A DNA stretch of 64,000 nucleotides from Psammoneis japonica. Taxonomy: Eukaryota. Position 1 is the first letter of the stretch. The number at the start of each line of letters is the position of its first letter. Location of the stretch: positions 1-64,000 of the forward strand of contig QPGO01000174.1 in the NCBI GenBank assembly GCA_008632985.1. The letters run 5' to 3'. Of the stretch, positions 7,561 to 52,385 are shown in pieces. The notes beneath the pieces were generated by a model. It saw only the letters and a list, made by a program, of their open reading frames with translations. It was not told the origin of the DNA and ran no database searches. Position numbers and translations under genes: made by a program.

Positions 7561-7853
7561 AGTGGAAAGTCAGCCTGGATGTCAGAAATCAAGTAGAACT
7601 TCGGTGCTCAAAGTGTAGTCAATCCTAGAACCTTGCATTGGGTATTCTTCAGGATAAAAAAATAGGACTGCTTTTCTGTTTATGATGTTACAATCCACAG
7701 TTTGTGGCCCTCGTAATCTGGTTTGGGATCAATCTACAGGCTCGCTCGTTGCATGTCTATATTATGTTACCATAGCTAGTCAGAGTCAACTTCAAATCGA
7801 TGAGATCTGTGCTGTCGTTGCAAATAGCCATGACGTCGGCAACTCTGCATCAC

Positions 7854-9068
7854 TCAGGGGGACCATTCTTCTTGGTCGACTCCATATGAGTTGTAAAAAT
7901 GGTTGAATCCATTGCTCTCCGAGGCATGTGTCCGCCTCGAATCGTCACAGGAACGCCACAAAGCAGTCACTCGCCCGATGTTGCTGTTGAAGCTCCCCAC
8001 AAAGTACGTGGCACTGATCAACAATTTGATGTCGGCCAGCAAAAACACGGTGTGTCCGCCATCTCGTGTCGTATCGTAATCACTCCGGGCCAACGTGTAC
8101 AGCGTACAGTTAATGGATGCCCTGCGTAAGGCCTCCGTCATATTGGGCACGACGAGATAGTCATCAGTGGCTAAATAGCAGGAACGAATCTTGGACAAGT
8201 CGTCAAAAGACAACCGATTGGTGAGTTGATCCACGTATTCTTGAGCTTCGAACGGTCTCGATTCTCGTAGAATCTTATCCCCTCGCCGTACATGGAAAGC
8301 CGCCGAGTGCTCAGAATCAAGCCCCTTTCCAAAGAGCGGAATTGACGCATTTCGTAAGATGCAGTCGATGCGCGCATGGATTTCCGGACGAATCTTCAAG
8401 TTGCACGCCAAAGGCGACACACTGCCATATAGGGTAATATTCGAACGCGTTTCTTCAAAATAGCCATGAATTTTACGGAGTAGCACAAAGAAAGTGTTCC
8501 ATTGTCGATTCGTCGACAGGGAAACGGTCACTATGGGCACTTCGTCTGAAGGTTGAAAACCGGGCCACCAAGCTTTTTCGATTGGAACAGAAGAATTCAG
8601 CGACTCAATAACAGTCGGCTTGTCCTGGACGTTATCCAGAACAGAAAAGTCTGTCATGAGAAAGCCCGTGCACAAGCCATGAGTGTTGTTTGGACGGTAC
8701 TGTTCAAATCGACTTTGATCCACTACTAAGGTTCGATTTGCCGCTTCCAAGAAATATAGCTGGAACAGTATGATTTGCATGAAAAGAGACCCGAAGCCGA
8801 GGTATCTCGTGAATCTTCCAAACTCAAAAAGAAAGACTTTTTGTTTTTTCATGAGAAGATCCTTGAAGCCACCCACTCCGGATAGCGTTATAGTTTCTGC
8901 TGTGTGATGCATGGTTGATGTATTCATCAAGCCAGCCGTCCTTGTTCCATTTTGCGAGCTTTCGACCATCAACGACGAGAATGGCTGGAGGCCGGGCATA
9001 AAGTAAACTCCGCGACTGGCCAAAATTAGAACAACTCCTACCACCAGTATTCTGCGGAGAGACTTCAT
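7854..9068 (-). CDS. Alpha-1,6-fucosyltransferase-like (GT23/FUT8-like) glycosyltransferase
   Basis: Intact ORF from ATG at 9068 (the track start is a GTG). N-terminal TM segment, 'LGFGSLF', 'FHVRRGDK', 'YLATDD', 'FVGSFNSNIGR'. Normal TpA. Confidence 0.8.
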   Translation of the reverse strand: MKSLRRILVVGVVLILASRGVYFMPGLQPFSSLMVESSQNGTRTAGLMNTSTMHHTAETITLSGVGGFKDLLMKKQKVFLFEFGRFTRYLGFGSLFMQIILFQLYFLEAANRTLVVDQSRFEQYRPNNTHGLCTGFLMTDFSVLDNVQDKPTVIESLNSSVPIEKAWWPGFQPSDEVPIVTVSLSTNRQWNTFFVLLRKIHGYFEETRSNITLYGSVSPLACNLKIRPEIHARIDCILRNASIPLFGKGLDSEHSAAFHVRRGDKILRESRPFEAQEYVDQLTNRLSFDDLSKIRSCYLATDDYLVVPNMTEALRRASINCTLYTLARSDYDTTRDGGHTVFLLADIKLLISATYFVGSFNSNIGRVTALWRSCDDSRRTHASESNGFNHFYNSYGVDQEEWSP

Positions 9069-11989
9069 ATGGTCGCTGACTACAGAAGGTAGCACTCACG
9101 TTGCATTCCTCAATATCTCTTGAGGATGTTCCTTTCTCTCAAACGGAACACTTCTACTCTCTACATGCTACTACTAGAGAGTGTCTGGTCTACCAAGCAC
9201 CTCAATTGAAGGTAAAAACCTCAATTGAGGCAGTTTTTCGACCCCCGTCGCTAAATCGCTAAAACCGTTGTTGCCCCCAAGTGACACCACAATGTTGTTC
9301 TCCATGCTTTAAAACCTCTAGGGGCAACAATTGGGGCAATTTTTTCATGTTCGTGGCCGGTTAAAGGAAAAGGGAAAAAAGGAGGGGATTCGACCGTTGA
9401 ACACACACACAAATTGACCATGCAACCAAGGCCAGAGTTGCACTGGCTTCTTTTGGTCCAGGGCAGTTGCTGCAGGTGCAAAGAGTGGGGCACATTGCAG
9501 CTGCAGGAGTGACAATGTGACGCTGAGTGTGTGCCACCAAGCTGAGCAGCCCAGCTTGGTTGTCAGCCAAGCCCTGCCAGGCCAGCTGCTGCCCTGGCTC
9601 CAGCTGTTCCTCCCAGCGTGCGCCGGTTGTTGAAGGAGCACCACATTGACTCAAAGGCTGTGTTTTAAGTGGGGCAGAGAGAAAAAACTGTCATCTCAAT
9701 TGGTGCTTGCTTCAGACCCTGCATCATGAGCGCAAGCTCCTCTTGAGAAATGAGCGAGAGAACAGCCATTTTTGGCACTTCTCTTTGGTTGCCCACTTGG
9801 CATTGCCGACAAATCTTGAACCCAATTTTGCTGACAGTTTCTTCACTCTTCAACCAAAAAAGCAGGCTCAACTTTTTGTTGGCTTCTTGTGGCTGGGGGT
9901 TGCTGTTGCAGGCACAAGTGGTGGGCACATGCCATGTGGCTGCTTCTTGGCAACAATGTGATGCCAAGCATGTGCCGCACACCAAGGAGCCAAGCAGCCC
10001 AGCTCAGCTTTGAATGGAGCCCCAGGACAGCAGCCAACTCTGGGTGATCTCAGCATGGTTTGCTTGTTCAAGCTGTGCTGCACTCACCCCACAATGCTCT
10101 GTGTTGTGGCGGCTTGTTGCAAGCCATGGCTCTGAGAAGTCAGCAGTCAGCCAGGGGCCCATCTTGCAAAGGCCGTGCATGTTGACCCTGTGCAAAGCTG
10201 TGTGAGGGGCCAGGCACAGGGGTTGCAATGATGGCTTCATGGCCATTGGCTCCAAGTTGGCATTTGATTGGGAGCCATTGCTGAGGGGCTGTGAAGTGTG
10301 GGGTTGGGAGCCCCTCACACTCTTTTTGTTGTCACAAATTGCTGCCACAGCTGTCTTTGCACTGCAGCCAGTCAGGTGCAGTTGGCCCCGAGTTGGCACT
10401 TGATTTGGAGTGACTGCCAAGGAGCTGTGAAGTGTGGGGTTGGGCAGTCCGGCCAGCTTGCACTCTTTGCTGACAGCAGAAAGTGCTGTTGCAGCTGTCC
10501 TTGCATTGTGGTGCCAGCCAGGCACACATGGCCAGAGCAGCCTTGGCACATCCTGCTGACAAAGCCAGCAAAAACAGTGACTCTTGTGGTTGAGCCAACA
10601 TGCAGGAGGTCTGGGCACACCCCTGGGAAGTCAAACAGGAAGGAGGGCTCAGCATTGCCACCAGCGCCAGGCAGACCACACAGCCCAGAGTTGGGTGTCT
10701 TGGCTGGCAGGTTGGAAAGCATTCTTGAGCACAGTCTGGCATGTGGGCAGTGCTGTCACCAAGAGAGCTGCTCTGCAGAGGAAGAGGGAAACAGGCAACA
10801 ACATTTTGCAAGAACTGTTTTGTCAATGGTCGGGTGGGATGGGGCAGCATCTAGACTTTGACGGAGCATTTGGCAGACAAAGATTGAGCACAGAGAGCTG
10901 TCCACTCAAGCCCCACAAGTGGCACATTCCAAAGGTGACACACCACACATGGGCCATGTGTTCATGCATCAACATGCCTCAAGCTGCAAGTCACATGAGA
11001 AACCACAACCAACCTTTCAACCAACCACCATCATGGACAGAACAGGGCAAGAGATTTGAAACAAGAGCGATTCATTGACTCTCTTCTTGTTTCATGCATT
11101 CAAGAGCTTCTTGTCCTTCTCAAATGTTTGTTGTGCATTCTTGTCTCTTTTAATTCAAGTGCAAAGAGGAGTCACTTTTCTTGTTTCTTTCTCTTGAGGG
11201 GTTGTTGGTTGTTGAGTGATGCAATTTTTGTTGTCACATTTTTGGAAATGTTGGCAAACCTGATCACTGCTTGATTGTCAACCCATTTGCTGTTTTGAGT
11301 CTCCATGGCATGAATGCCACAATTCCAGAGCCCTCAATTGTTTCATCAAACACAGTGCTTTGAAACACGTCCAACATCAACTCAACTCAGTTGAAATCCC
11401 AGTTTGTGGGCAATGAAAAATCACGAATGTCAAACAAATGGCTGCTTTCAACACATCAAGATCCCCAAGTTCAATCCAAATGTGACAACACACCTCAGAG
11501 CTTGTGGCCATGACACATGCAAGCATGCTTCATTGTTGTCATTGCATGCTCACATCGAAAGTGCCGATGGATCAAAGTTCAGGAAAAGGATGGCATGCAA
11601 ATTCAATTGTGCATTCATTGTTGGCATTGGCGCAATGACATTTGCGGCAGAAGCAATCAAAAATCCTTGTTCGTCATTGACATTTCTGTGTTGCTCAGAA
11701 TTTGAAATCTGACCACTGCCGTTGAGCATTTGGCTCTCTTTGTGTTGAAGTGGAAATGCACACTGGCCATTTGGCTTTTTTTGTGATGAAGTGGAAATGG
11801 CGCTTGACGATTTGCACTGACCATTTGGCTCACTTTGGCTCAAAGTCAGACAAAGAGATCTGGTTGTGGGCTTGTCATCAACCAGCCACGAGCATGAAAT
11901 CTTTACCACAATTGGGCTCTTCATTTGCACTCAACCACACATTTGCCTTCTTCACCTTGTTGGCATGCAAACATGTGCGTGCCAAAAAT

Positions 11990-12210
11990 GTGCGAATTTT
12001 GGCACTTTGGTGATGATGATGCGACCGCCATTTTGATTTGCGTGGCAAAGAGCAACACCTTTGATCAGATGACATTTCAGCTGATTTCCTGAGAAGTTGA
12101 CATTTGAGTGTCGATGGGCAGACTGACTGACAAATGTCATTTCCAGTGCTCTTCTGCACAATTTCTGTGCAGCAACTCTGAGAGTCACAATGACTCCCAT
12201 TGAAGTCTTG
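11990..12210. repeat. Dispersed non-coding repeat, also at about 38455-38530 (inverted), 39670-39800 and 39975-40110 (inverted)
   Basis: Shared blocks tgatttcc(t/c)gagaagttgacatt, cagactgac and ctgcacaatttct. Confidence 0.65.
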
Positions 12211-12789
12211 GTCAGCAGAAAAAACAACTGAGACATCAGACTCCATCTCTGCAACATCAGGAAAGCATCAAAGCCCTTTGTTCAAAGCAGTGCATGTGTG
12301 CTGGACTTGTTGCCCAATGCCACAAGTTGCAAGGACTGTGCACATGTCATTGGGTGCTGCCACCATGCCATCTGTGGTGCAAAACAACAAATGGGATGAC
12401 CCCTGATGAGTGACAAGTTGCAAGATGTGAGAAAAGATTCTGTTGGAATGCTTGAGTTGGAGGTGGTTTTTGCAGAACAGACAAACAAAGTTGCGGCAAA
12501 AAGACATGCTGACAACTGTGGACAATGTGGTGAGTTTGCATTCGCAGCTCAGTTTGAGTCATTTGTCTCATGCTCACTTTTTAGCTTCTGCACCTGGCTG
12601 AGGCAACATGGTGATGGTGGTCAACAGCAACAACAACATGATGTTTGCGAGCCATGCAGTGAGTCAGGAGTTGGTGAGACCAAATGTGTGCCAGTCAACA
12701 AGCCACAAAGCTCCAACACAGAAGCTGAAAAGGCATGGCATGACACTCAAAGGAGTGGTGTCATTGGAAGGTTAGGAAGTTGAGAGGTG

Positions 12790-14230
12790 TCCAAAGATCT
12801 CAGGGCTGGGAAATTGATGGGAATCCAAAGGATGAGGGCTGGAAATTTGAAAGGAGTCCAAAGGCATGCCTTGTGTTGACAGATTGCAGCAAATGAGCCA
12901 GCTGGATGAGGGTGAAGAAATGGTCTCTGCGGGCCTTGTTGTTGAAGAAATTGATGAGGGTCTGCTGAAGGAGGGTGTGGTGAGGTTGTGTTGGGGTCAG
13001 CAAGACACAGTGCCGTGCAGCTGTTGTCAAGCCGTGGAACTCAAAAGCAAGTCTCAAAAAAGACAGGCAAGGACACAGTGCCATGCAGCTGTTGTCAAGC
13101 TGTGGAACTCAAAAGCAAGTCTAAAAAAACAGGCAAGGATGCTGCTGAGCACAGAAGCACAAAAGAACCAAAGGAGGGAGTGTCTGAAGCCATTGCCAAG
13201 TCAGCATGTCAGGCAAGAAACTGCTGCACAGAAACCACAAGGAAGATCAGCCAGCATGTTTGGAGAGAACATTTGGGCTGGAGATGCAGGCGCTGGTGTC
13301 TCTGAGGCAAGAGAACAACCCAAAAGAGCTGGAGCATCCATTGGGAAGCACTGTGTTGGAAAAGGACAAGAAAATCTGACAGAAGGAATGCAACAACTGT
13401 GCACAACAGAGTGGGATCTACAAAATGCAGAAGGCAAAGGTTTTTGGCATTGTCAGGGGCAACATGCAAAAGCCATTTGTCACAAACTTGAAGGAGTGAT
13501 GGATTTTGGGAGATGTGTGAAAGAGTGGGATGTGGCAGCAGTGCTGTTGGGTGTTCTCAGGTTGATCTCATTTGATGAAAATGAGATGACAAACCTGCAT
13601 GTTTGGGCAGTCATCAAGGCCAGAAGCAGCTGGCACTTGTTTGTCAAGATGAAGGAGAGGCACTTCAAGATTGTTGCAATTGGTCCATGAGCGTTGTTGA
13701 GGCAGCAGAAACATCTTGTGGCAGGGTCATCCCAGAAGAAATTGTCAGGAAAGAAAATGAGTTCAGCAAGGATGTGTTGATGAGCAGCTCACATTGGGGG
13801 TTGACATTTGCCCCAATTCAGCCAAGGAGGTGCCAAAGGTGTTTGACAACTGCAGGACCAAGAAACCTGATGGCGCAATTTTTGTGCAGAGCAAAAACAA
13901 GCAGATTCAATGCTGGAAGTGCACCAAAGTTGGGCATGCAAGAAAGCATTGCCCTGACAGCAATCATTCATTGGCAGAGCCAGATGATGCGGGCCATGGG
14001 AAATGACAGAACAGTTGAAGTGGCGCTGGATGGCACATGGACACATGTGGGGGCAGCATGCCCAGCATTGCTCCAAGTGCATTTTTCTAAGTGGCTCAGC
14101 TTTCCAACAAGCAATTGACAGCTGAGTGCCCCAGCAGGATCTTGGAAGATGCCGCTTGAGCATCCTTTGGCACTGGTCAATTGAGCATGGCTGCATCAAG
14201 TGAACGGCGGCAACATCTCACAATGCTGGC
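12790..14230 (-). mobile_element. Possible highly decayed non-LTR retrotransposon RT (CRE-like)
   Basis: Weak remnants 'CCQGNAF' (QGxP), 'PLAPPWLNWGKCQ' (LxLNxxKC), 'TNGF..AFLLSDFL..PQ..LHL..KCSL'. Confidence 0.3.
13004..13138 (+). repeat. Tandem duplication of about 68 bp (2 copies)
   Basis: gacacagtgcc(g/a)tgcagctgttgtcaagc(c/t)gtggaactcaaaagcaagtct..aaaa..acaggcaag occurs twice. Confidence 0.9.
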
Positions 14231-14910
14231 ACCCAGAGAATTCTGCGTGTCTCCTTCCACAGTGATGAAAAACACTTGATGGCAGCAATTGTGGCACAGC
14301 AAGGCTTTAAAAAGCACAGTTTGTGCTCGACTTGAGCGCGTCATTTGTCACCAAGGAAGGGCTTTTTTCCAATGAAACAAACATCAAGAGAAACAAATCA
14401 AGATGCTGGCAGCTGTGAGAGCCTGGGTGGTGACATGTGCACTGCAAGAATGCTGTGGATGTGCCTTTTTTGAAAGAAGCAGTCAGGCAAAAGAGGTGAC
14501 ATGCCAATGATCAGTTTTCCTGGGATGCAAGTGTGCACAACAGTCATGCCAAAAGGTTGCGAAAAGCAGCACCCGAGAAACTGACAATCGGGGTGTGCAA
14601 AAGAAAACAAGAGGAGCAGAAATCAGCCAAAACAAAACATTGCCCAAAAGAAAGTTTCAAGGTGCAACGGAGAAGAAGAACAACACTGTGACACATGGAA
14701 GAAAGTCGGTGCCCAGGCTCTTGGAAGTTTGTCAGTTTGCTCGCCATTTGACAAAAAACACAGCAATCTTAATTTGAACAGCACAGTGGACATGACCGGC
14801 TGGAGCATGAGCACTTCACAAATCTTGTGACAAAACTGCAGCTTCAAGGTGTGACTGCACTTTCATGTGACAAAAGCAAGCTTGTCTGCCCCCAGCAAGC
14901 TCCTCACTCA

Positions 14911-16100
14911 TCATTTCAGCATTCCTCCCCCCACACCATCATTGAAGGAAAAACATTCTTGGATTGCACCCTGTCCATTTGCCAGTGTCGGCACCTTGGC
15001 AACTTTTTCATGCTCCATTGGGTTGGATTCTAGCATTTGAACACGCTCAAGAGCGGGTGTTGCATTGTGCATGTCACAAAGGACAAAGGCATCTCGATCA
15101 AAGAGTTGAAAAATGTTGCAAGTGCCACAACAAATGGGAGCACAACCCCCCTGAAAGGCCATTGATGTCTTTTCCATCATGCAGCTGTCGTGAGTGCTGT
15201 GTTCCATGACCAAACAAAACCTGCAGTCGTGGCAGGATTGAACGTTGTCGGCCCAGTTTGACAGGGTGATGCCCGTGTCAATTTTTGTGTTGTTTTCACT
15301 TGCAATGTGCACCTGCCCAAGCTTGGAAATCTTGTCACATGCTGCCTCACGAAACGGCACGCAATTGGATTGGCTGTAAATCACAAAGTGCTTCTTTGTG
15401 CTTTTTGGCTTTTGACTGTGATCAAGCAGCTCGTCATGTCCCTTTTTAAAAAGTTCAAACCACCAAACAAACTGCAGACAGCAAATTCGCAACACATTGG
15501 GATGAAACGTGTTGGATGGCACTGGCCCAAGGTGACAGACAAAGTTGTCTTGCAAAATTGGCATTTGCGAAACGAGGTTGACATCAAGATCTTCCCCAAT
15601 GGACAAAACCACTTTGCCTTGAAAGGAATGCCTTGTCCAGTGTTCTACAATGGCCGCACAAAAGCCACCATTGGTCAACTGAAAAAGATCATGTTTGTGT
15701 GTGACATGCTTTCCTTGCAAATCTTTGAGCTCTTTGCCTTGAAATCTGCCTCGTCCCACATTTTGCAAACTCTTGAACAAGTGCTCAGGTGGCACATCTT
15801 GGAGTGCATTTTGGAATTGATCGTTTCCGTTGTTGTCACCCGCACAAGCAAACATGCGTGGTGCAGATTCAGCAATGTTTGCTTTCATTGCTGTTGTTGG
15901 TGTTGCTGCAACAGTCGTGGCGGCATTGTCCTCGTCATTGTCTGGCCACAAAGATGTCAACCAAAAAGCATTGAGAATCAGAGAGCTGAAAACTGTCAGT
16001 GCCAGGAAGAAAACCAAAAGTTTCTGACACAACACTGGAAAAGGGGTTTTGTTCAAAATCCGTTGTTGGGGAGACTTGGACTTTGTCCTCATGATTGCAG
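14911..16100 (-). pseudogene. Hypermutated alpha-1,3-fucosyltransferase (GT10) gene, frame still open
   Basis: TM anchor near the N-terminus. 'DCRFCLVMEH....SCMMEKTSMAFQGGCAPICCG' matches the GT10 motif YxFxLxxEN..YITEK..AF..GxxPIYxG with Tyr replaced by Cys. One Tyr seen in the 449-aa ORF. Confidence 0.8.
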
Positions 16101-16499
16101 TTTGCTTTGTTTGTGGGCATTGTTTCAAGCAGCAAACATCAGGCCTCGAGTGACGAGCATGTGCGGCGGTTCCCGGTTCCCGGATGTTGATGACGGTGAC
16201 GGTGCTCTTGCTCATCCCGGTTTCAAAACATTTTTCAAAACACACTTTCAACTTGTTCAATGACCAAAATGACCCTCAAATGACTGTTTTGTGCATTCTG
16301 TGCATTGCAAACACAACAGCCACAAACAACAAGTGATGTCAAAAAATGTTCGGAACATCCACTTTCCGTTGACATGAATTTGTGCGGTGTGGGCGCAAAA
16401 TGCACACGCGCGCAGGATGCAGAGCGAGGATGAAAACACAGTGCAGCATGGCATGAAGTGCTGATCCCAAAGTCTCATGATGGTTGTGTCAAATTTTGG

Positions 16500-17698
16500 G
16501 AACCATGGAATGCACAGGGAAACACTGCACCCGGATTGGCGTCACATTGATTTTAGTGCAGGTGGCTCATCTTGCTTCTGTTCAGCTTGCTTGCCTTTTT
16601 TGATGCAGTTTTCCAGTCCTCAGTGATGAGCAACACTCAGCTGCACTTCTGAATTCTGCCAAGAAAGTTCAGAACACAAACACCCATGAAAACAGAACGT
16701 TGGTGATTTTGATGGGAAACTTGCAATGTGGTGAGCTTGCATGGGAAACCCTTTGCACAGACATGTGTTGGATGCAAATTCAGCTGATCTGGCTCTGTTC
16801 ACCCAAGAGCCCACACAGCAATGTCAGAATGCATCCATCCTGCTGAGAGCAAAGCACATTTACAAACACCCAAAGTGCGATGATTGGGCTGATGCTGTTG
16901 ACATGACAAATGGCACAGCATGGCGCGGGCGTTTGTGCCCAATCTGCAACAAGAAGACTGCAAAGCTTGGAGGCATGGGAAACTTTAGTGGGAGTGGCAC
17001 AATCACATTCATGTGTCGATGGTTCATCTCACAACGCATCAAAAAACTTGAATGGATGAAGAAGTGTGATCGCTTTGTCATTTCACGAACTGATCATTTT
17101 TGCACAGCCCCCCATGACCTCTCAGACCTTGACAATCATTGTGTGTGGGTGCCAGCAGGAGAAGACTGTGGGGGGAAATGTGATGATCATTTGTGGTGAA
17201 CTCAACCTTGGTCTTGAAAGCTCTTGATGTGCTTCCACCAATCATCAAAAACCCAGAAAAGTTTGAAGCGCAACTGGCTTCTTTTTTAATGCACTCAACT
17301 CGGAACAGCTCCTTGCGGCACGCTGGGGACAAGAGGGGCTCATGGGTTCTGTGAAACGTTTTCAACAAATGATGTTTGTTTGTGGTGTTCCTGGAGACCA
17401 AGTCAGAATGAACCCCCTCCAAACTGTGATGGAAGAGGGAGTGCAGCCCAAGTGTGGGGCAGAATGTGCCCTTGCCAAATCGACAGGTGAGATGCAAATA
17501 GACTGTGGGTGTCCTGGTCATTGCAGCTCTCTTTCACTGAGCAGTGTTGAAGGCAAAATGCCACGTTCGTGCATGGAGCAGATGCAGCATGTGATGAAAA
17601 AGCACAAGATGAGTCAGAATGCATCATGTGTTCATGCGGCAGATTCAAGAGCTTGTGGACCCGAGTGCAACCCAAATCTTTGTGTTGCCGCAACTTAA
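16500..17698 (+). pseudogene. Hypermutated, frameshifted putative glycosyltransferase gene with C-terminal Cys-rich module
   Basis: 'HVLDANSADLAL', 'GSGTITFMCRWF', 'KCDRFVISRTDHFC', 'VWVPAGEDCGG.CD' (expected YDRFVxxRxD and EDYGGxxDR). Ends in 'CGCPGHC...CGPECNPNLC'. Confidence 0.65.
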
Positions 17699-18379
17699 AG
17701 AATGCATGGTGGAGAAATTGAGCATTGCAAATTTGAGCCACCACAACACTGTGCACACTCACCCAAGAACAATCAATCTAAAATCAACAGTCACAACACT
17801 TGAAGAAAACCACAACTGTGACAATTTAATGTTTTGGCTAGAGATCTTGATTGGCCCTCTTGTTTTTGGCATGAGGAAGTGCGGAAAGTCCAACTGTGGC
17901 ATGGAATTGGCACGACCTGTGCACACCGGGTGGGACCTGTCAGCATGCACTGCATCTTGTCTCCTTGAGCATGGTGGGAACTCAAGAACCTGCTGCATTG
18001 TGCATGCCAACATCGTGCAACTGTCTCATCACTTTGCTTGTTTGTCCTCCCATGAAGATCTGGTGTGGCGCTGGTGCAAAAACTGGACCAACATTTTTGC
18101 TGAGAGAGACTGCCAGTGGTGGGGCATGGCCAGCAGGTGGGAAAGGTGGGGGCAACCAAGCTGTCTCTCAGAGGCTTGCTGCCAAGCTCTTCAGAAGAAT
18201 TTTGAGGAGTGTCCACGATGAAAACCTCACCTTTTGCAAATGCTTTGGCAGCAACAGCATCTTCAAACTTGGTGGCAGGAGCATTGTCCTTGAGTGCCAG
18301 AGTCTGGCTGGCAGGCATCTGCAGCTCAATGCCACAAAGCAGTGGCATCAAAGGAGGAGTCTGTGGCACACCTCTGGGT

Positions 18380-20120
18380 GCTCAGGAACAGGCAGATGCA
18401 GGGCTGGACTGTCAGCAGGTGAGCTTGTGTTTGTTGCTCTTGTCCTTGTGTGCAACTGCCCTGCAGTCTTGCGGTCACTGCGCTTGCATGACTGACAAAG
18501 ATGACAAGCCAGCCTGTGTCACCTGCTGGAGAAACACACCACTGGCAACAATTTTTGTTGAGCTGAAGGAAGTCCTTGAAGAGTGCACTGCAGCTCCTCA
18601 AAATGATCAAGCTGTGGTGGGTGATTCTTCATCAAGCCACAACGGCATTTCATCTGAGCAGGAAGGACACAGCCCCATCAAACAAGATGCTCTTGACCAA
18701 TGTGTGCCCATCTCCACAGTGCCGTTGAACAATGCCAGGTTGCTTTGTGTTGCTTGGAAAATGCCAGCCTTCCAAGCAACTGGAAAATGGCAAACCTCTT
18801 GCTGTCCAGCACAACACACACTTGGTGCCAGAAGGATCAGGGAAGGGGGGGGAGGGGCTTCAATGTGTTTGCAATGGCATCTTCAAACCAGCTGGGTCCA
18901 GGCAAATGCACAGCCAAGCCTTTGGAAATTTCTTCTAAAGAGCAGCGCTCACAGAACCCACAACTTCAGGTTTGTCACAGCAATGATTTTGCTGCAGAGC
19001 TTGTGCACACTCAACTGTGTGGGTCCAGCATGTTGCACAGTTTCCCCCCATCAAACATGTGGCTTGCACCAAGGCACACACAGATGATGCAGCAAAACAA
19101 GCGGGTGCTTTTCAACNNNNNNNNNNNNNNNNNNNNNNNNNNNNNNNNNNNNNNNNNNNNNNNNNNNNNNNNNNNNNNNNNNNNNNNNNNNNNNNNNNNN
19201 NNNNNNNNNNNNNNNNNNNNNNNNNNNNNNNNNNNNNNNNNNNNNNNNNNNNNNNNNNNNNNNNNNNNNNNNNNNNNNNNNNNNNNNNNNNNNNNNNNNN
19301 NNNNNNNNNNNNNNNNNNNNNNNNNNNNNNNNNNNNNNNNNNNNNNNNNNNNNNNNNNNNNNNNNNNNNNNNNNNNNNNNNNAAGCTGTTTTGGCACAGC
19401 TGTGTCAATGAGTGTGTGTCTTGTTGGCTTGAAAAATGCGTGTGGTTGACAAATGATGAAAGACGGCCACAGATTCACATTTGTTTTGTCATGCTTGGGT
19501 GTCAAAAGAGCCAGGTTGGTCGAATTAATCCCGTTGGACCTCCCTGTTGGGGGAGTGAGCGGTCTGGGCCCACAAGCATGTGATCAACGAGAGCCAGGGT
19601 TCTGCAGTGCTGCACAGCAGTGAGATGTCTTTGCAGCAAAGACTGCGTGCAATGGATGCAATCAAGTCAGCATGCGTTTTGCTGTCAAATGTTTTGAGTC
19701 GATTCCTTGCCAGAATGTCAGGCTGAACCCAACAGTCATGCACCCCTGCATGCCGCAAAATTCCCCCCATGATGTTGTGCTCTTGCTCCCTCTCTCTCTC
19801 TCTCTCTCTGTCTCCAGTGGAGGGAGTCACAGTTGAGACAACATGAGCAAAAGGGATTGGTTGAATGTAAATGACATTGAGCGACCACTGACACGGCGCT
19901 GCTTGGTCCGTGCCATCTGGTCAGGGTTCGTCCTTGCTTTCCTTGTGACTGAAGCCTTTCTTTGTGCTTCCGTGTCGATGCAAGAGCCTGCATTGATGCA
20001 AGAGCAAGAGCTCAAATTGGTCTTCTTTGCCCAGCAGGAATCCCATTTGGCACTTGTTAAACAGACAGTGGAGGTTCAAGCAAATGGGATCTGTCCCCAC
20101 AGCGGGAATCACCCTTGACC
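18380..20120 (+). pseudogene. Possible heavily decayed membrane-anchored gene (perhaps exostosin-like) spanning the assembly gap
   Basis: Hydrophobic segment 'VSLCLLLLSLCA' followed by a stem-like region. Only faint motif resemblance. Confidence 0.25.
19117..19382. other. Assembly gap (N run)
   Basis: Run of n characters. Confidence 1.
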
Positions 20121-20230
20121 CACAATTGACTTCCAGAAAAGTGTTTTCATGAGGGTCCTTTTGTCATTGCTCTATAGAATCGTGTGCTCACACATGCTTT
20201 CCCGCCGAAAATGAGAATGACAGCAGAACA

Positions 20231-21844
20231 TTGCAGTGGCTCATTGAACTAAGAATGTTCATTTGCGTTGTCATTGACCACATGGTTTGGTGCCATCATT
20301 CTCATTTTCGGCAATGTCATTTTGTGTGCAACATTAAGAAGATGATTCCCATCTTTTTCTTGTCCAACGCACATGAAAACACTTTTTCGATCTGGAGTGA
20401 CTCCCGCCATGGGGACAGATCCAAGCAAATGACCCATTTCCTTGGTGGGGTGATTCCAGTGGAATTGATGTTGAAGCGATTGCAGCGTTCTTCAAAGTGT
20501 GGAGGTCAAAGACCAACAAGAACATGGATTTTCTGCATCCTCATGAGATGTGTCCCATTGGAAATGCCACTGCATTGTTTGGCCTGCCCACAGACCCCAA
20601 TGAAAACAATTCCAGTGAGGAGGGAGATCCAAAGGTTTGGGCAGAAATCTCCGCTAAAAACACTCGACGACTCATCCCAAACAGACTAGATCCAGGAGAA
20701 AAACTGCTTGTTGGTGCACTTGAGATGCTCTGCAATTCCATTTTTCACAAATGGAGCAGACTCAAGCAGGTTGCACTGACGTCTGGGCTGCCAATCATCA
20801 TCAACTGTGCAGACTGTCGAGGATGCAGCAAGGAAAACCTCCTGTTCAATGGGACCACATGCAGCACTCCAATCTTTTCCCTTTGTTCTGCATTCAAGGC
20901 AGAATCGTGCAATCGTGCATTTCCATTGCCAACATGTTTCGTTGTTGAGCATGCAAGGGGCAGTTCCAAAGAGTGGGATGCTGTTTTTGGGGAACAAGAT
21001 TTAACGCACCCTTGGGAAAACGAAACCAGCTGTGTGGAGAGGAACGAATTCAGGGTTTCCCAGTCAGGAAGACTGTCTTCGCCACAGAATGGCGCAAGAA
21101 GCATCCAAACACCAAGATCAACTGTTTGACATTGGACATGTCACAAGGGGAGCAGAATCAACATTTCGTTGTTCCCGGATCCCCTTTGAGGATTTTCAAA
21201 CCTGCAGAGCAACACTTGATGTGGACGGGAACTCGTGGTCAGGTCGTTTTGTCAAGCTCATGTCAATGAATTCTGTCGCAATAAAGGTGGAGCCGGAGTT
21301 TACTGATTTCTTCATGCCACAGCTTCAACCTTGGGTTCACTGCGCACCAGCACGGGCTGACATGTCGGATCTTGCCAACATTACAAAGTTCGTCCTGGCA
21401 GACAAGAATGCACCAAGAATGAAGAAAATTGTTCAGAATGCATGTGATTGGTCAAGGGATTTTTCTGTCTACAACAATGTGGTGGAATCAATCCTGCCCA
21501 TCTTGTCATTTTATGTGGAACTGCTGGACAGGAACAATCCTCATTGGGAAGACGTGTGGCGAAAAAACCTGCAACAATTGGTGAAGCCAGAGTTGAATTG
21601 GGCTGCGACTTGGTCAACCGAGGGACGAGAGAACATCAATTGCAGATGCCCTCAAACTTGCAACAAGGATGCATTGAGCAACAAGAGGAACAATCTTCCC
21701 TTCAGTTGCCAGCAACGCATCTGCTGCATGATGTCCACACATGGAATGTCTCAGAGTGAATCGTGCATCCATGCAAGCAATCCAGATTCTGGCGCATGTG
21801 GACCCGAGTGTGACCCTAACCTCTGCACAGCAACACAGACATGA
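20231..21844 (+). pseudogene. Hypermutated, frameshifted GT90 (CAP10/POGLUT-like) glycosyltransferase with C-terminal Cys-rich module
   Basis: 'FQTCRATLDVDGNSWSGRF..LMSMNSVAIKVEP....F...LQPWVHCAPARADMSDL' matches GT90 YxxxxDxDGNxWSxRF...PWVHYxPV. Frameshift near 21030. Confidence 0.85.
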
Positions 21845-22959
21845 CAGCCTGCAAATGATCCAGTCAGTGAGAGTTGCAGCCTTCACTTCAGTTCAGACAA
21901 CAAGAGTTGAGAGGGCAGTGACTGCCGACTTCTGCAGCAAAGTGTGCTTGACAAATTAAAAATGAAGTCAGCCTTCTCCCGGTTTGATGTTTAAGTTTTC
22001 AAGAAGCACCACCAAACAGTCCGTTCGTTCAAATCCCAAAACCTTCAGGGTGTGTCAAATGATTTACAAGCAGATGTTCTGCCAGTGCAAGGCCACCCAC
22101 GCCCAATGATCCCAGGCATTTCAGATGACATGTCCGATGCAGCGAATTCCATTGCTTTGGCTGGTGTCAAGAGCTGGACTTCTCTTGATGTCTCCAACAC
22201 ATCCCAAGATGGCGCCAAAGCACCACAGAAGAATCTGTCGGACAGTCAAGCTCCTCCTGCTCCCCAGCTCCCACTGATGTTGGAGTGCCCCCATTCAAAA
22301 CCTTTGTTGATTCATCCACCACCAAACCTCCTCCTGCTGGCACAACTTCAGACCTTGCCAATCATGCTTCAGACGTGGCTGACTTGAAACAAGAAATGGC
22401 TTGAATGAAACAGGACAATGAAGCCAGACTTGCCAGAATTGAGGAACAACACCAGCAATCTGTGGCCACACTCCAACATGATCTTTAGTGTGAGCATCAA
22501 ACCCAAAGGGACAACCTGGTTGAGCAAATTCAGGCATTCCTCCAAAAATGCCTTCCACCTCCCGACTCAGAATCTGAAACATGTTCATCTCCTGTGCACA
22601 AGAAACCTGCAGCTTTGGCTCCAGCTGGTGCCTCTGCTGAGCAGCCCCCGGATGCATCAATGATGGACATGGCTCAAGAGGACTCGCATTTTAATGGGGT
22701 GAACCAAGTCATCTTCTTTGCCCAAAGCAGTTGATGCAGACAATGCATCTTCTCCAGTCTCCCTTCAAGGGAGCACAGCATCATCATGAGGGGACTGCCC
22801 CTTCACCCGCAGTTGCTCCGCTGCAATGCAGGGGACCCCTCTGAACACGCAATCACCTGCATCCCTTCAAGAAGCTGCCCAACAATGGAGTCACATCCCA
22901 GATGGATGACAGCATTCTCTTCCTCCTCAAACTGTTGACTGTTCAAATCTAAAATCAAG

Positions 22960-25160
22960 TGAAGATTGGCGACCTGTTGGGTCCAAAAGCTCCAGAAACT
23001 GCTCGTCCATGTGTGCTCAATTCAAGTGGTTGTTTGTTTGACTCTCTCGGCAGTGATTTTAACTCCTGCTGCCAGGTTGTTGATGAAATTCAAGCTGATG
23101 TCATCGGCATGTCAGAAACTTGCTTGGATGCCTCCCAACCCTCCACAGCCAAAACAAGCAGGTTGGTTGTCAAGAACACCCTTCATCACAGACGCATGGT
23201 CTTCTCTGCATTCTCTGCCCCATGATTCACAACACCTCACAAACCAGGTGGCACTGCTGTTGTTTCTTGCAATTCAGCAGAATTCCAACACTGCCTCAAG
23301 ATGGCAGATCCACTGGGATGCTGGGCTGTTCAAATGTTTGATGGAAAGCAGGGTGGACAGGTCATGTTTGTCTCGTGCTGCCGAGTGTGTTCTGACAACT
23401 CTTCCACGGCAGGAAAAACCACAGCTTGTGCCCAACAAGTGAACCCACTGCACCAAGAACAAGGCAGAGCACAGCCTGAGCCGTGCCACACCTTTTGTTG
23501 CAACACAACAAGAATGCTCAAATCATTCTTGGATGAACCGAATTGTGAAGTCATCCTGTTTGGGGATTTCAACACTGACTTCCGGCATGATGCTGATTCC
23601 TTGGCATGCTGCCTTGGCAATGAGGTTTAAACTGTCGGACATGATGTTTGGCCAGATGCAAGACCTGGATTTTGCCGCTCACTTGCATGGATGCTGCCAT
23701 CTTGATTGTGTCCTGGCTGCACCTGGTGCTCTTGAGGCTGTGACAGCTTGTGGATGTGAACCTTTTGGTTGCAGGATTTTGTCAGATTGCCATGCCCATT
23801 TTGTGGATTTTGACATTGAGGTCCTTTTTGGAAACATGTCAGTTGGCATTCCTTGCTCTGCTCATTGGACTCTTTTGACCAAATCACCAAAGCATGTTGC
23901 AACCTGCCTGGATGCTGAAACATTTCAGCTCACAGCAAAGCCCCGCTGCTTTCTGAGGACCCAGATCATCACTTGGCAGAACATCTCAACCGCAACATGG
24001 CACAATTTTGCATTTCAGCTGCAAAGCACTGTCGTCAATGTCAAGAGCCAGAATGGTCCAAAAAACTTGCCGACTTGCACAGGAAAGTTTTTGTTCTTTC
24101 TCGGCTTCTCTCCATGTTTGAGAACAAGACCACTTTTGTGGATTCGATCGTCCATGCAAAGTGCAAGCTCAAGGAATCCTTTCTTCTCCCAATCACCACA
24201 GAAGAGTGTCAAACCTCCCTTTGTTGCACTCAATCCAAATGCAAGAAAGTTGCTGGAGCAAGTTTGCACCACCGAGAATTAGAAAGAGATGCAAAGACAG
24301 CAGACTTGGACATGGAGGGCACCCCTTCATCTGCCAAGGAAGCAAAAATCCTCCAAACCATGAGATGTGCTGAAGAGATCACCAGAGTTTTTTGCAAGAT
24401 CAACACATTTGCAGATGAGGATGGCTCCAGTGTCAGCAAAGTTCAAGTCCTTGAAAATCTGTTAGATGATCCCATGACATGCAACAGCTGGGCAATGATC
24501 GACGCTCCACAAGACGTCGTGGCTGTCTTGACTGCTTGGAACCAAAAGCATTTCGGCCAGGCCCATGGCACCCCACCTGCAATTCCTCCCCTGCAGATTG
24601 ACTTGGGATGTGAAAGCAACACTGTCATGGCTGAACTTGTGCTCGATGGTGACCACTCCATGACCAGCATGACAGAAGCAACAGCTCTTTTGACCAAGCA
24701 TCTCTGCAGATGCACCCCTGTTGCCACATCTAATTTCCTGATGGCCGACAACATCCGTGGTGAATTTCAAATGTGGGCTGAATCCACTTTGACATTGATC
24801 AAGTCTGGACTGCATTTGGGTCACTGGAAAGCCATGCATTCCAAGCATGTGCATTCAACAGCAACGGATCCACAAGGTGCACCTGCCACTCGGAATCAAG
24901 AGCTTGATGAAAATCAAGAAATGTTGCAACAGATTTGATTGAACCTTCTAAATTGCACACTCAAATGGGGACATTCCTTCAACAGGTGGCAAGATGTCAT
25001 CAACATCATGATCTTTAAAGAGCCTGGCAACAAAATGATCCACCGGCTCCATGTCATTCACATTCATGAAGCAGGTTTTCAATTGATCACCAGCATCAAG
25101 TGGCGGGCCCTTGCACAACACATGGAACATGATCGCTTGTTCAATCCTGGCATGCATGGC
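22960..25160 (+). mobile_element. LINE ORF2 remnant (AP endonuclease and RT N-terminus), 3'-truncated
   Basis: 'DVIGMSET', 'KPGGT', 'DPLGCW', 'VSCCRVC' (SAYR), 'ILFGDFN', 'LDCVL', 'SDCH..FVDF', 'SGLHLGHWKA', 'KEPGN..IHRLHVIHIHEA' (IHIYEAD). Confidence 0.85.
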
Positions 25161-25169
25161 ACTGGAGCT

Positions 25170-26000
25170 TTCTTGTGTGCCCAAACTGTGAAATGCTTGA
25201 GTGTCCTGACAACCTTTCTCTTCTTCCTTGATGCATCTGCATCATTTTGTGGATGTCAATGAGCACTTTTATTTTGTGGCCTTGGTCAGAGCTGTGACTC
25301 ATGCTGCAGTCTTTGGCTCATCTCTGATCTTCTTGACCATTGCATCCCATTTTGTGATGGACTCTTCCCTTGTGTTCTCTGACTTCTGTTTCAGTTCTTG
25401 TGCAGACACACCTTCCTCCGACGGCTCTTGCAGATCTTTCTGGAGCAGCACAAACACTCTCTTGTCCTGGTCATCATTCTTTTCAGCTGTTGTTAGATCT
25501 GGCTTGACAGTCTTGCACAAGTCCTTGCTTCCCTCTTGGTCCATCAGGCCTCTGTCTCATCAACCAACTCCACATCGCAATCCAATGTCAAAGTCCCATC
25601 CTTGTTTGGGCTCTTGCCAAGGTGCGCGCTGCACCCATCCTCCAGTCCTTGGAAGTGCACTCTTTCCAGCATGTGTCTCCAACAATCAGATGCAGCGTGC
25701 AGTTGCAGAACACTGTCTGCAAAGCCAGGTTTCCCAGGCAATCTTGGAATCTTTCCGCGAACGGCAAGATGCCATTGTCGTCACCACAGCAAGCACAAAG
25801 AGCTTCATTTGCAGCAGGGAAAGCAAGTGATGACACTGTCAGCAATTGCAATGGCTGCTCTTGTTGCACCCTCCATTTGATGTTTCCTTGACATGTTCTC
25901 TCACCTTTGCTGTGTTCTGCATGACCTTGGCATGATCCACCATCATCCATTCAGCAGAGCTTGTCTGCTGCTCCACAATGACCATCATCCCCGCTGCTGC
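25170..26000 (-). repeat. Decayed coding repeat of unknown family, homologous (inverted) to about 45000-45800
   Basis: 'ALCACCGDDNGILPF.ERFQD..L.LQTVFCNC.L.LIVGD..WK' vs 'VLCACCNKNNCILPL.E.FQD...TLQMVLCNCLL.LVVGDVHWK'; 'DCDVELVD' vs 'DCNVELDD'. Confidence 0.65.
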
Positions 26001-26199
26001 TGCAGTGATTTTTCCGGTGTGCCCTGAAGCACAGCACACTGAAGCAAGGTGACAGATGTGGTTGAGTGAGTCTTGCAGATGATGCGCGCACGACGGTTGT
26101 CTTTTTCCCTTCTTTGTGTTTTTTTGCTTGCCCAAAAAGGGTGTTTCCCCTGTGTTTTTTTTAATTTGGCTGCACATCTTCATTCAAATTTAAATGGAC

Positions 26200-26784
26200 C
26201 CTCCATCCAATTCAAAGCTGTGCCTCTTCAATGTCTGAACATGTGAACCGCAGGATGAAAAAACACGCCTTCTTGTCATTTTTCAACTTTTTGCAAAAAT
26301 CACATTGCCAAAAAGTGAAAAAATGGCCAAAACTGGGTGCCATTGTGAGAAAAGTTACACCCTGACGGCTCCAATGAGAATCATTTTTCTGCATGATTTC
26401 TGCATGGCTCATGCATGAATCACAGCACAACAGATGAATTTTGGTGAAAATGTTGAAGATTTGTGTGTGTCCAATGTTTGCACCACAGAGCACAAAACAA
26501 TTGCTCCAGATGTTTTTTGGCAGGTGTTCCACCTGCATGAGATTCATTGCCAATGTGCTGTCGCACAATCAGTCTTGAGTTTGCAGAGGGGATTTACAGT
26601 GCATGTTCCATGAGGACTTGAACGCCACCAAAAAAACCATTTGACTGTTCATGCACCCAACACCTGCAAAAACGCATCCACACAAGCATCTTTTTGTGCA
26701 AATTCCACATGCATGAGAGACACACAATTTGTCATGTCCAAAATGAGTTGTCATTTTGTGTGTCACCTGGGGCTGGAGCACATC
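26200..26784 (-). mobile_element. MITE related to the 33470-34036 element (left end not resolved)
   Basis: Right end reverse complement gatgtgctccagccccaggtgacacacaaaa matches 33470 ggcgtgttccagccccaggtgacacacaaaa. Internal homology of 26420-26470 to 33780-33830. Confidence 0.65.
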
Positions 26785-26799
26785 ATTGGCTGCTTGGCA

Positions 26800-28480: not shown

Positions 28481-28686
28481 CCCTCAATTTGCAAAATTGG
28501 CATAGACTAACTGGGAGAGTGTGTCCATCCACTCTGCAGGGATTGGTACAAAATCCACACAACGGATGGCGTGACGCAAGGGCATGCCGCCGGTGCGGGC
28601 ACTTAGGCTACTTCACGAACAGAAGCAGGGAACGAACGAACAAAGGCCTCCACTTTGCCTGCACAGCAAAGTGGATCTGATCTGCC

Positions 28687-30312: not shown

Positions 30313-30589
30313 CCCAACATTTTTTACTTGCATGAACATGTATGCAGAGACATGAAGCCATGATGCTCCACACATCCAATCTCGTCAGAGAGATCTGTCA
30401 CCTGCAATGGAACGGCAAGGACGATTCTTGTGCTTCTGAACAGCTTGGACCCATCAGCAGTTACGAGAGGGAGGCAATCTTGAAAAGACAGATGTTAGAT
30501 GATGTGCTAGACCTTAAGTTCTTGTTTTTAAAAAAGCAACTTTGGCATTTTCTGTCTAGAAGCCTCCAGCTAAGGTAAAACACTTCTAA

Positions 30590-46857: not shown

Positions 46858-47041
46858 TGAGCGGTCTTGACAAGTTGTCCACGAATGCTTTCTAAAAATT
46901 GTGGGAAAAGCTGCAATTAACTGCAGCCACAGTGTTTGGGTTTCTGTTGCAGAATTTCTTCGAGGTGTCAACAATCCCGGTCATTCAAATCTCCCGAATC
47001 TTGCAGCTGCTGATGCAATTGTGACGCAGAAGTTTGCTTCA
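46858..47041 (-). repeat. 3' LTR (184 bp)
   Basis: Direct repeat of 52386-52573. Confidence 0.95.
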
Positions 47042-52262: not shown

Positions 52263-52385
52263 GCATGCAAAGCACCGCGCACGGTGCTCTCAGCAAAGCT
52301 CTCACCAAATGCGACACTGCGTTTGAGGCAAAGGATGCACAACAAAGAAAGGAGAAGGAAAGAACAAGACACAGTGTGATCACAG

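What the first reader, a model, noticed from the sequence alone, without database searches (positions are those of the whole stretch)
9370..19116. Surviving TA sites suggest the target motif: YTAR is spared, RTAY is essentially gone
Most residual TAs I could find in this block are ttaa, ctaa, ttag or ctag (9666, 10852, 11151, 12582, 13122, 14088, 14308, 15031, 15447, 17287, 17779, 18935). A few are YTAY or RTAR, and I saw no RTAY. This fits a mutator that prefers 5'-TAY-3' on either strand. Established parallels: TadA-type adenine deaminases favour a 5' T, and polymerase eta makes A>G at WA motifs. Which, if either, applies is inference.
Basis: partly seen in the sequence, partly recalled or inferred. 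Interest (0 to 1): 0.8.

Follow-up and report, generated by a model that had tools for sequence, protein, structure and literature searches.

The report
Neighbour rule of a TA-erasing mutator
In this alga-like genome, repeat-rich DNA has lost about 95% of its TA steps to TG or CA, and the few TA steps left obey a strict neighbour rule that is a fingerprint of the still unknown mutating enzyme.

Summary
The block 9370-19116 has 25 TA where about 650 are expected. Of these, 19 are YTAR, 6 are YTAY or RTAR, and none is RTAY (P=8e-10 against genic TA contexts).

Across all TA-poor DNA of the window (51 kb) the split is 127 YTAR, 56 mixed and 0 RTAY of 183. In the genic islands it is 72, 199 and 113 of 384.

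About 77% (63-91%) of lost YTAY became YTGY, so the changed A lies next to the Y flank. Conserved tyrosines of a gypsy pol agree.

YTAR itself is not spared. The base at +2 matters as much as +1:
- TA in TYTARA survives about 0.9.
- YTAR with no TARA half-site survives 0.08.
- RTAY survives 0 of about 686 expected.

AA is untouched, so the pol-eta WA model fails. ADAR's UAG hot spot is among the better-surviving contexts here.

TpA-only hypermutation is in print only in one 2026 preprint, on Bigelowiella. Its main text gives no flank rule. This scan has already reported the YTAR/RTAY rule on two other pieces of this genome. The enzyme remains inferred.

The parts
9370..19116 (.). The block of the finding: DNA almost free of TA (25 TA; O/E 0.02-0.06), low in CpG and rich in TG/CA. 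Residual TA are 19 YTAR, 6 mixed and 0 RTAY. 23 of the 25 carry at least one TARA half-site. Six are full TYTARA sites, at 10852, 13122, 14308, 15447, 17779 and 18936.
9370..14036 (.). Left part of the block: a high-copy repeat. Summed word depth of run X1's contigs is 321-6385, against about 55-70 for single-copy DNA. No Pfam family was recognised.
14037..19116 (.). Right part of the block: single-copy depth (50-91) yet equally free of TA. It holds dead glycosyltransferase gene copies.
14914..16275 (-). Open frame of 454 aa with weak GT10 fucosyltransferase similarity (E 5e-5, just under Pfam's cut-off). Tyr is 0.2%, Cys 5.1% and His 4.2%, against Tyr 2.8-3.9% in the intact genes. This is a hypermutated dead gene copy.
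17474..17683 (+). Remnant similar (37% aa over 70) to the C-terminus of the intact exostosin-like gene at 28681-30312. A second remnant lies at 21632-21775.
7642..9113 (.). Unmutated island left of the block, delimited by its RTAY sites. It holds a FUT8-like ORF at 7854-9095 on the minus strand. TA density drops from 20 per 500 bases (9001-9500) to 1 (9501-10000).
19117..19382 (.). Run of N (an assembly gap).
19383..28545 (.). Continuation of the same TA-depleted domain, with no RTAY up to 28546.
28546..30340 (+). Unmutated island with an intact exostosin GT47-like gene (ORF 28681-30312). It is one source of the baseline TA contexts.
46863..52573 (-). Ty3/gypsy retrotransposon, with LTRs at 46863-47041 and 52391-52573 (about 91% identical) and pol at 47100-50592. 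It gave the independent coding test. In ORFs 47498-50592, 21 of 25 conserved Tyr columns are Cys (13) or His (8), while Trp is kept in 15 of 15 and His in 13 of 14. One further conserved Tyr column, in the pol C-terminus 47100-47618, is Cys.

Best explanation
The block is part of a domain of at least 19 kb of silenced repeat DNA and dead gene copies. A local mutation process has rewritten almost every TpA there to TpG or CpA, on top of ordinary CpG decay. The surviving TA sites reveal the neighbour rule of that process.

Shown here:
- Each strand is hit on its own.
- The chance that the A of a TA changes is set by the two bases 3' of it on the same strand.
- At +1 the order of sensitivity is T >= C > G > A.
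- An A at +2 protects. TA followed by RA (TAAA, TAGA) is practically immune, so TYTARA hexamers keep their TA.
- RTAY, sensitive on both strands, is wiped out.

Inferred:
- The agent is an enzyme that reads about four bases, 5'-T-A-N-N-3', on one strand. Most likely it is a DNA adenine deaminase (A to inosine, read as G).
- It is recruited by chromatin state rather than by the sequence itself, because high-copy and single-copy DNA inside the domain are equally affected.

The confidence given is for the context-dependent, per-strand TpA mutator. The adenine-deaminase identity alone I would put at about 0.45.
For: Depletion and products:
- TA O/E is .06 in depleted DNA against .52 in the islands. 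CA/TG is 1.76 against 1.28, and CG is .35 against .92.

Flank rule:
- 127 YTAR, 56 mixed and 0 RTAY of 183, against 72, 199 and 113 of 384 in the islands.
- Survival conditioned on flanks, by the two bases after TA: AA .39, GA .29, AT .18, AC .11, AG .09, GC .07, GT .05, CA .04, GG .025, CC .024; CG, CT, TC, TG and TT .011-.016; TA-TA .37, not meaningful (35 steps).
- These values are nearly the same in the left and right halves of the window: AA .384/.390, GA .299/.274, AT .169/.184.
- By class: TYTARA keeps 39 TA of about 44 expected, and its density is .76 per kb in depleted DNA against .78 per kb in the islands. YTAR with 1 TARA half-site survives .43 and with 0 survives .076. Mixed contexts survive .14 and .018. 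RTAY keeps 0 of about 686.

Per-strand action:
- 77% (63-91%) of lost YTAY became YTGY.
- At sites with one immune and one sensitive half-site, the share of loss on the immune strand is -0.13 (-.51 to .17), so all conversion went through the sensitive strand.
- The rate ratio from survival predicts a 79% share, against 77% from the products. This is my arithmetic.

Coding read-out:
- In the gypsy pol, 21 of 25 conserved Tyr columns are Cys or His.
- With a pyrimidine before the codon the split is Cys 10 to His 4. With a purine it is 6 to 5.

Targeting:
- 9370-14036 is high-copy and 14037-19116 is at single-copy depth, and both are free of TA.

Precedent:
- TpA-only A>G/T>C hypermutation was observed directly in mutation-accumulation lines of Bigelowiella natans (preprint 10.64898/2026.01.13.699255; abstract and passages read).
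Against: - Ancestral TA contexts are taken from only 9 kb of coding islands. Coding DNA avoids in-frame TAA and TAG, so the survival of TAR contexts may be overestimated. The TYTARA baseline rests on 7 TA of 44 steps (bootstrap survival .45-2.7).
- The P, M and S half-site classes were defined from the same data. Only the left/right comparison guards against circularity.
- Log-survival is not strictly additive. The additive model predicts about 6 RTAY or sensitive-sensitive survivors and 0 are seen. Immune-plus-medium sites survive .39 against .23 predicted. Some dependence on both flanks, or cooperation between the strands, remains unexplained.
- The Tyr-codon test alone is not significant (10:4, one-sided p about .09, my arithmetic).
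- Direct pairs are few. The LTR pair gives 4 TA-related differences, and two of them hit TAA contexts.
- Sequence cannot tell A>G on one strand from T>C on the other.
- No enzyme gene could be sought, because no genome is held.
Confidence: 0.7

Rival explanations
1. The chemistry acts on the thymine rather than the adenine. For example, a TET/JBP-type dioxygenase oxidises T of TpA to 5hmU or 5fU, which mispairs with G, or a glycosylase drives T-to-C repair. The rule then reads mirrored: T is hit in 5'-R-T-A and protected in 5'-T-Y-T-A.
For: A>G at TAY on one strand cannot be told from T>C at RTA on the other in any test made here. That 5-formyluracil mispairs with G, and that base J sits at TpA steps of trypanosome telomeres, is recalled and comes from no call.
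Against: There is no evidence for such an enzyme or base here. The only published case (B. natans preprint) argues for an adenine deaminase, though also only by inference. A four-base reading window around a flipped base is typical of nucleic-acid deaminases (recalled).
Confidence: 0.2
2. The residual TA are not survivors. They are new TA made by ordinary C>T or G>A changes at CA/TG after the mutator stopped.
For: CA and TG are very abundant in the block (O/E 1.76), so back-mutation must create some TA.
Against: CA+TG steps in depleted DNA divide 2717, 2802 and 5610 among Y..R, R..Y and mixed flanks. Random back-mutation would therefore put about 25% of new TA in RTAY, and 0 of 183 is seen. 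TYTARA density equals that of unmutated DNA, as expected for retention. If the mutator is still active, the equilibrium again reflects its context rule.
Confidence: 0.05
3. ADAR-type A-to-I editing of double-stranded retroelement RNA, fixed by reverse transcription.
For: It gives A>G with a 5' U preference. A gypsy element is among the mutated DNA.
Against: Depletion is continuous over at least 19 kb and includes single-copy dead host-gene copies and DNA between elements. ADAR's hot spot is 5'UAG (PMC10661471, Table 1 passage). Here TAG survives better than TAY overall (trinucleotide ratio .12 against .01-.03), and TAGA is nearly immune.
Confidence: 0.02
4. Error-prone repair synthesis by a pol-eta-like polymerase at WA motifs.
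Against: AA is not depleted. It is .328 of purine-purine steps in the islands and .320 in depleted DNA, and AA O/E is 1.19 against 1.25. TA is reduced about 20-fold.
Confidence: 0.02
5. Selection or function keeps the surviving TA, for example as stop codons, poly(A) signals or protein-binding sites.
For: TAA and TAG are stop codons, and TAAA-like words occur in signals.
Against: The rule is symmetric on both strands and identical in the two halves of the window. Survivors are scattered through dead, Tyr-free frames and unrecognisable repeats.
Confidence: 0.03

Closest known systems
TpA-targeted hypermutation of integrated giant-virus and virophage DNA in Bigelowiella natans (Mettrop et al., bioRxiv 10.64898/2026.01.13.699255; outline, abstract and 12 passages read)
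   Same: Changes are only at TpA, giving TpG or CpA. The process is confined to local domains of foreign or transposon-like DNA. The long-term signature is low TpA with high CpA+TpG. An adenine deaminase is proposed by inference.
   Different: The organism differs: the nearest Atlas clusters of one gene are commonest in diatoms (a weak lead). Depletion here is near total (TA O/E .02-.06, against Rho .45 for their viral region) and is joined to CpG decay. It also covers dead host-gene copies at single-copy depth. The preprint's main text holds no occurrence of 'context' or 'trinucleotide' and gives no flank rule. Its Table S2 of mutations could not be read, because bioRxiv supplements are closed.
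Repeat-induced point mutation (RIP) of Neurospora and other ascomycetes
   Same: Transition hypermutation with a dinucleotide preference kills repeats and duplicated genes in sharply bounded domains.
   Different: RIP changes C to T at CpA and so raises TpA (abstract of PMC2621366 in the listing). Here TpA is erased and CpA/TpG rise, which is the opposite direction and a different target base.
TadA/ADAT2 tRNA adenosine deaminases and base editors derived from them
   Same: The target is an A preceded by U or T. Their listed motif is 5'ACG after U33 (PMC10661471, Table 1 passage). TAC, and especially TACG, are among the least surviving contexts here.
   Different: TAT is at least as sensitive as TAC. 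The TACG value is confounded by CpG decay. Eukaryotic ADAT2/3 edits anticodons with G or A at the next position (recalled), which would not predict immunity of TAGA and TAAA. No gene was examined.
ADAR editing of double-stranded RNA
   Same: A-to-I chemistry with a 5' U preference.
   Different: Its hot spot is 5'UAG, and TAG is among the better-surviving contexts here. Its substrate is RNA, whereas here a contiguous DNA domain is affected.

Membership tests
TpA-targeted hypermutation (Bigelowiella natans type) | Changes are confined to TpA and give TpG or CpA (A>G / T>C transitions) | tested here: met
   TA O/E is .06 and CA/TG is 1.76 in depleted DNA. The balance conditioned on purine/pyrimidine class fits. 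21 of 25 conserved Tyr columns are Cys or His. AA, AG, GA and GG shares are almost unchanged.
TpA-targeted hypermutation (Bigelowiella natans type) | Local domains are affected and neighbouring genes are spared | tested here: met
   RTAY sites occur only in seven islands, with none between 9113 and 28546. TA per 500 bases drops from 20 to 1 at about 9500.
TpA-targeted hypermutation (Bigelowiella natans type) | Targets are foreign, viral or transposon-derived DNA | tested here: inconclusive
   A gypsy element and high-copy repeats are hit. So are single-copy dead glycosyltransferase copies at 14037-19116. No viral genes were recognised.
TpA-targeted hypermutation (Bigelowiella natans type) | New mutations are observed directly, and the same flank rule applies | not testable with these tools
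   No mutation-accumulation data exist for this organism. The preprint's mutation table is a closed supplement.
RIP (fungal repeat-induced point mutation) | C>T at CpA, raising TpA and lowering CpA/TpG | tested here: not met
   The direction is opposite: TA .06 and CA/TG 1.76.
RIP (fungal repeat-induced point mutation) | Only duplicated DNA is hit | tested here: inconclusive
   Half of the block is high-copy and half is at single-copy depth at 88% likeness. Remnants are distant paralogues of an intact gene (37-44% aa).
TadA/ADAT-type deaminase as the agent | Target A is preceded by U/T and followed by C-G (bacterial TadA) | tested here: inconclusive
   The 5' T requirement is absolute. TAC and TACG survive poorly (.024-.043 and .015), but TAT survives equally poorly and TACG is confounded by CpG decay.
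TadA/ADAT-type deaminase as the agent | A deaminase gene of this family, beyond the tRNA enzyme, is present in the genome | not testable with these tools
   No genome is held for this window.
ADAR-type editing | The preferred motif is 5'UAG | tested here: not met
   TAG survives better than TAY overall (trinucleotide ratio .12 against .01-.03), and TAGA survives .29. The motif is from PMC10661471.
Pol-eta-type WA mutagenesis | A>G at both AA and TA | tested here: not met
   The AA share of purine-purine steps is .328 in the islands and .320 in depleted DNA.

The most novel reading that the evidence does not exclude
A chromatin-directed DNA adenine deaminase system, so far unknown as an enzyme, works as a 'reverse RIP' genome defence in this diatom-like alga. 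Its four-base specificity is T-A followed by anything but R-A. If the Bigelowiella mutations obey the same rule, one ancient system would be shared between stramenopiles and rhizarians.
Probability: 0.4. Interest if true: 0.9.

Novelty: new variant of a known kind. Interest (0 to 1): 0.75.

Why it matters
A mutator that erases TpA in silenced DNA is known from a single 2026 preprint, and its enzyme is unidentified. A quantitative neighbour rule makes the search for the enzyme testable:
- TAT and TAC are fast.
- TAAA and TAGA are immune.
- The strands are hit independently.

Candidate deaminases or thymine-modifying enzymes can be assayed on four oligonucleotide contexts. The published Bigelowiella mutations can be checked for the same rule. 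It argues against ADAR-like specificity and the AA result against pol-eta-like mutagenesis.

The rule also has practical uses. RTAY sites mark unmutated DNA sharply, which helps to delimit functional genes in such genomes. Open frames in TA-free DNA are not evidence of genes, because TAA and TAG stops have been erased.

Tried and rejected
- Plain product counts (TGN/CAN per kb, depleted against islands) were too confounded by CpG decay and composition to read. I replaced them with the analysis conditioned on purine/pyrimidine class.
- In-window repeats are few: blastn kept 17 pairs, and tblastx mostly found the same pairs. The LTR pair gives only 4 TA-related and 4 CpG differences. The three-copy alignment is too diverged.
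- The one public DNA run that holds the block (X1; possibly the assembly's own source) was laid on 1-19116. It gave copy-depth information and a transition excess: 482 transitions to 113 transversions by place. Only 40 of 595 differences were listed, too few for a context test.
- I looked for kb-scale strand bias or runs of TG against CA. The variance of z is 1.5 and autocorrelation is about 0, so no strand-coordinated patches showed in this diluted test.
- Pfam on 40 frames of the block found only the weak GT10 match.
- The homologue search with the exostosin-like gene found one unnamed protein. Its Atlas hits are plant and green-alga clusters. The Atlas hits of the methyltransferase ORF are commonest in Bacillariophyta, a weak lead only.
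- No tRNA genes were found.
- The small 'island' at 33500-34000 is merely less mutated DNA.
- Literature: five full-text searches found no description of TpA-erasing hypermutation other than the Bigelowiella preprint, and none of a flank rule. One search was about TadA context only. PMC10953296, opened for 'YAC', proved irrelevant.
- No whole genome is held, so the proteome search for deaminases could not be done.


Full report

The window is eukaryotic DNA. No whole genome is held for it. Most 2-kb bins have a TA observed/expected ratio of 0.01-0.11. A few islands lie at about 0.45-0.56.

The block 9370-19116 holds 25 TA in 9747 bases, where about 650 are expected. The full tally is 19 YTAR, 6 YTAY/RTAR and 0 RTAY.

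I divided the window into 500-base bins:
- 102 bins with <=6 TA ('depleted', 51 kb)
- 18 bins with >=15 TA ('normal', 9 kb)
- 8 intermediate bins

| Domain | YTAR | mixed | RTAY | n |
|---|---|---|---|---|
| Depleted | 127 | 56 | 0 | 183 |
| Normal | 72 | 199 | 113 | 384 |
| Intermediate | 23 | 34 | 14 | 71 |

The chi-square of depleted against normal gives p=9e-35. For the block alone, P(>=19 of 25 YTAR) is 8e-10. The result does not depend on the thresholds.

All 127 RTAY sites of the window lie in seven islands, and none lies between 9113 and 28546. The block's right end is an assembly gap (N run 19117-19382), and the depleted domain continues behind it.

**2. What the TA became**

| Dinucleotide | O/E depleted | O/E normal |
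|---|---|---|
| TA | .06 | .52 |
| CG | .35 | .92 |
| CA/TG | 1.76 | 1.28 |
| AA | 1.25 | 1.19 |

They show TA>TG/CA transitions on top of CpG decay.

In frames inside depleted DNA tyrosine is nearly absent (0-0.2%), and Cys and His are raised. The intact genes have 2.8-3.9% Tyr.

I aligned the Ty3/gypsy pol at 47498-50592 with 40 homologues (P0002-P0041, of 346 found). Of 25 conserved Tyr columns, 13 are Cys, 8 are His, 1 is Tyr and 3 are other residues. Trp is kept in 15 of 15 columns, His in 13 of 14 and Gly in 34 of 37.

**3. Which flank, and which strand**

Survival alone cannot tell two models apart: 'A is hit in T-A-Y' and 'A is hit in R-T-A'. Both spare YTAR. They differ in the product. 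YTAY becomes YTGY under the first and YCAY under the second.

Both mutation processes are transitions, so the purine/pyrimidine class of every position is preserved. I therefore conditioned on that class.

Shares in Y-YR-Y contexts, with R-YR-R contexts folded in:

| Domain | TA | TG | CA | CG | n |
|---|---|---|---|---|---|
| Normal | .172 | .348 | .277 | .203 | 1160 |
| Depleted | .009 | .534 | .374 | .083 | 6180 |

With CpG loss split evenly between TG and CA, 77% of the lost TA became TG (bootstrap over bins 63-91%). The survival figures (YTAR .29, mixed .053) give a Y:R rate ratio of about 3.7. That predicts 79%, which agrees (my arithmetic).

The Tyr codons give an independent check:

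| Base before the codon | Cys (TGY) | His (CAY) |
|---|---|---|
| Pyrimidine | 10 | 4 |
| Purine | 6 | 5 |

Three Phe, two Trp, one Ser and one retained Tyr are not counted. The direction is as predicted, but the test alone is not significant.

**4. The rule is wider than YTAR**

Among survivors the base at +2 is A in 60% of half-sites, against 26% at all YR steps of depleted DNA. Of 183 survivors, 151 carry at least one TARA half-site, against 99 of 384 in normal DNA. In the block it is 23 of 25.

Survival conditioned on flanks, by the two bases after TA:

| Bases after TA | Survival |
|---|---|
| AA | .39 |
| GA | .29 |
| AT | .18 |
| AC | .11 |
| AG | .09 |
| GC | .07 |
| GT | .05 |
| CA | .04 |
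| GG | .025 |
| CC | .024 |
| CG, CT, TC, TG, TT | .011-.016 |
| TA | .37 (35 steps only; not meaningful) |

The values repeat closely in the two halves of the window.

By class:

| Class | TA left | Expected | Survival |
|---|---|---|---|
| YTAR, two TARA half-sites (TYTARA) | 39 | about 44 | .89 |
| YTAR, one TARA half-site | 70 | about 161 | .43 |
| YTAR, no TARA half-site | 18 | about 236 | .076 |
| Mixed, one TARA half-site | 42 | about 298 | .14 |
| Mixed, no TARA half-site | 14 | about 762 | .018 |
| RTAY | 0 | about 686 | 0 |

TYTARA density is .76 per kb in depleted DNA and .78 per kb in normal DNA.

At sites with one immune and one sensitive half-site, the share of conversions on the immune strand is -0.13 (-.51 to .17). 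All loss therefore went through the other strand. The strands are read separately, each A by its own 3' dinucleotide.

Caveats:
- The baseline is 9 kb of coding DNA.
- The half-site classes were defined on the same data.
- Additivity is imperfect. About 6 RTAY-type survivors are predicted and 0 are seen.

**5. Other models**

- Pol eta (WA): AA is .328 of purine-purine steps in normal DNA and .320 in depleted DNA. Rejected.
- ADAR: its hot spot is 5'UAG (PMC10661471, Table 1 passage). Here TAG survives better than TAY overall, and TAGA is nearly immune. The depletion also covers contiguous DNA, not only retroelements. Rejected.
- Random back-mutation: this would place about 25% of new TA in RTAY, and 0 of 183 is seen.
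- TadA (listed motif 5'ACG after U33): compatible with the 5' T and with sensitive TAC and TACG. TAT is equally sensitive, though, and TACG is confounded by CpG decay.
- A thymine-directed route (T>C at RTA): sequence cannot exclude it.

**6. What the block is**

Contigs of the only public DNA run that holds the block were laid on 1-19116. Depth is 50-91 for 1-1914 and 14037-19116. It is 321-6385 for 8933-14036 and 413-2563 for 1915-7656.

So the left half of the block is a high-copy repeat. The right half is at single-copy depth. It holds a Tyr-free GT10-like frame (14914-16275, minus strand) and a remnant resembling the intact exostosin-like gene at 28681-30312.

Targeting therefore follows the domain, which coincides with CpG decay, rather than present copy number. 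That the domain is silenced chromatin is an inference.

**7. Comparison with what is known, and novelty**

Five full-text searches found one description of TpA-only hypermutation: the 2026 preprint on Bigelowiella natans.

RIP runs in the opposite direction.

Earlier notes of this scan report the same TpA erasure on many pieces of this genome. Two of them report the YTAR/RTAY rule (e1-7548941, e1-7621409). None that I found reports the +2 effect.

The organism is called a diatom in those notes. Here only the Atlas neighbours of one methyltransferase ORF point that way.

**Verdict**

The TAY reading is supported, but 'YTAR spared' must be sharpened to 'TA followed by RA is immune'. The enzyme is inferred, not shown.

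Noticed in passing
window 14037-19116, compared with 9370-14036: The right half of the TA-free block is at single-copy depth in the public run (50-91). The left half is at 321-6385. Hypermutation is therefore not limited to DNA that is repetitive today.
   Followed up: partly
window 14914-16275 (-), 17474-17683 (+), 21632-21775 (+), 28681-30312 (+): This is a cluster of glycosyltransferase genes. One exostosin-like gene is intact. Dead, Tyr-free relatives (GT10-like and exostosin-like remnants) lie in the depleted DNA beside it, which suggests that old gene duplicates were inactivated by the mutator.
   Followed up: partly
whole window, depleted domains: TAA and TAG have been erased, so depleted DNA is full of long overlapping open frames on both strands, for example 14911-16275 (-) and 15262-16263 (+). 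ORF length is no evidence of a gene here.
   Followed up: partly
window 46863-52573: A Ty3/gypsy element has LTRs about 91% identical. The LTR differences are a mix of TA against TG/CA (4) and CpG against TpG/CpA (4), so both processes acted after insertion.
   Followed up: partly
window 33500-34000: A short, less-mutated patch (10 TA, two GTAC) lies inside otherwise TA-free DNA. No gene or tRNA was recognised there.
   Followed up: partly
window 1100 and 1138 (genic island): The public run's contig reads G where the window has the A of a TA (ATAG and ATAT contexts). These are possible allelic TA>TG differences inside an unmutated island.
   Followed up: no
depleted domains, purine-pyrimidine steps: The GC step share rises (.215 to .293) and the AT share falls (.288 to .236). 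This is as expected if GTA>GCA and TAC>TGC create GC, while ATA and TAT lose AT.
   Followed up: partly
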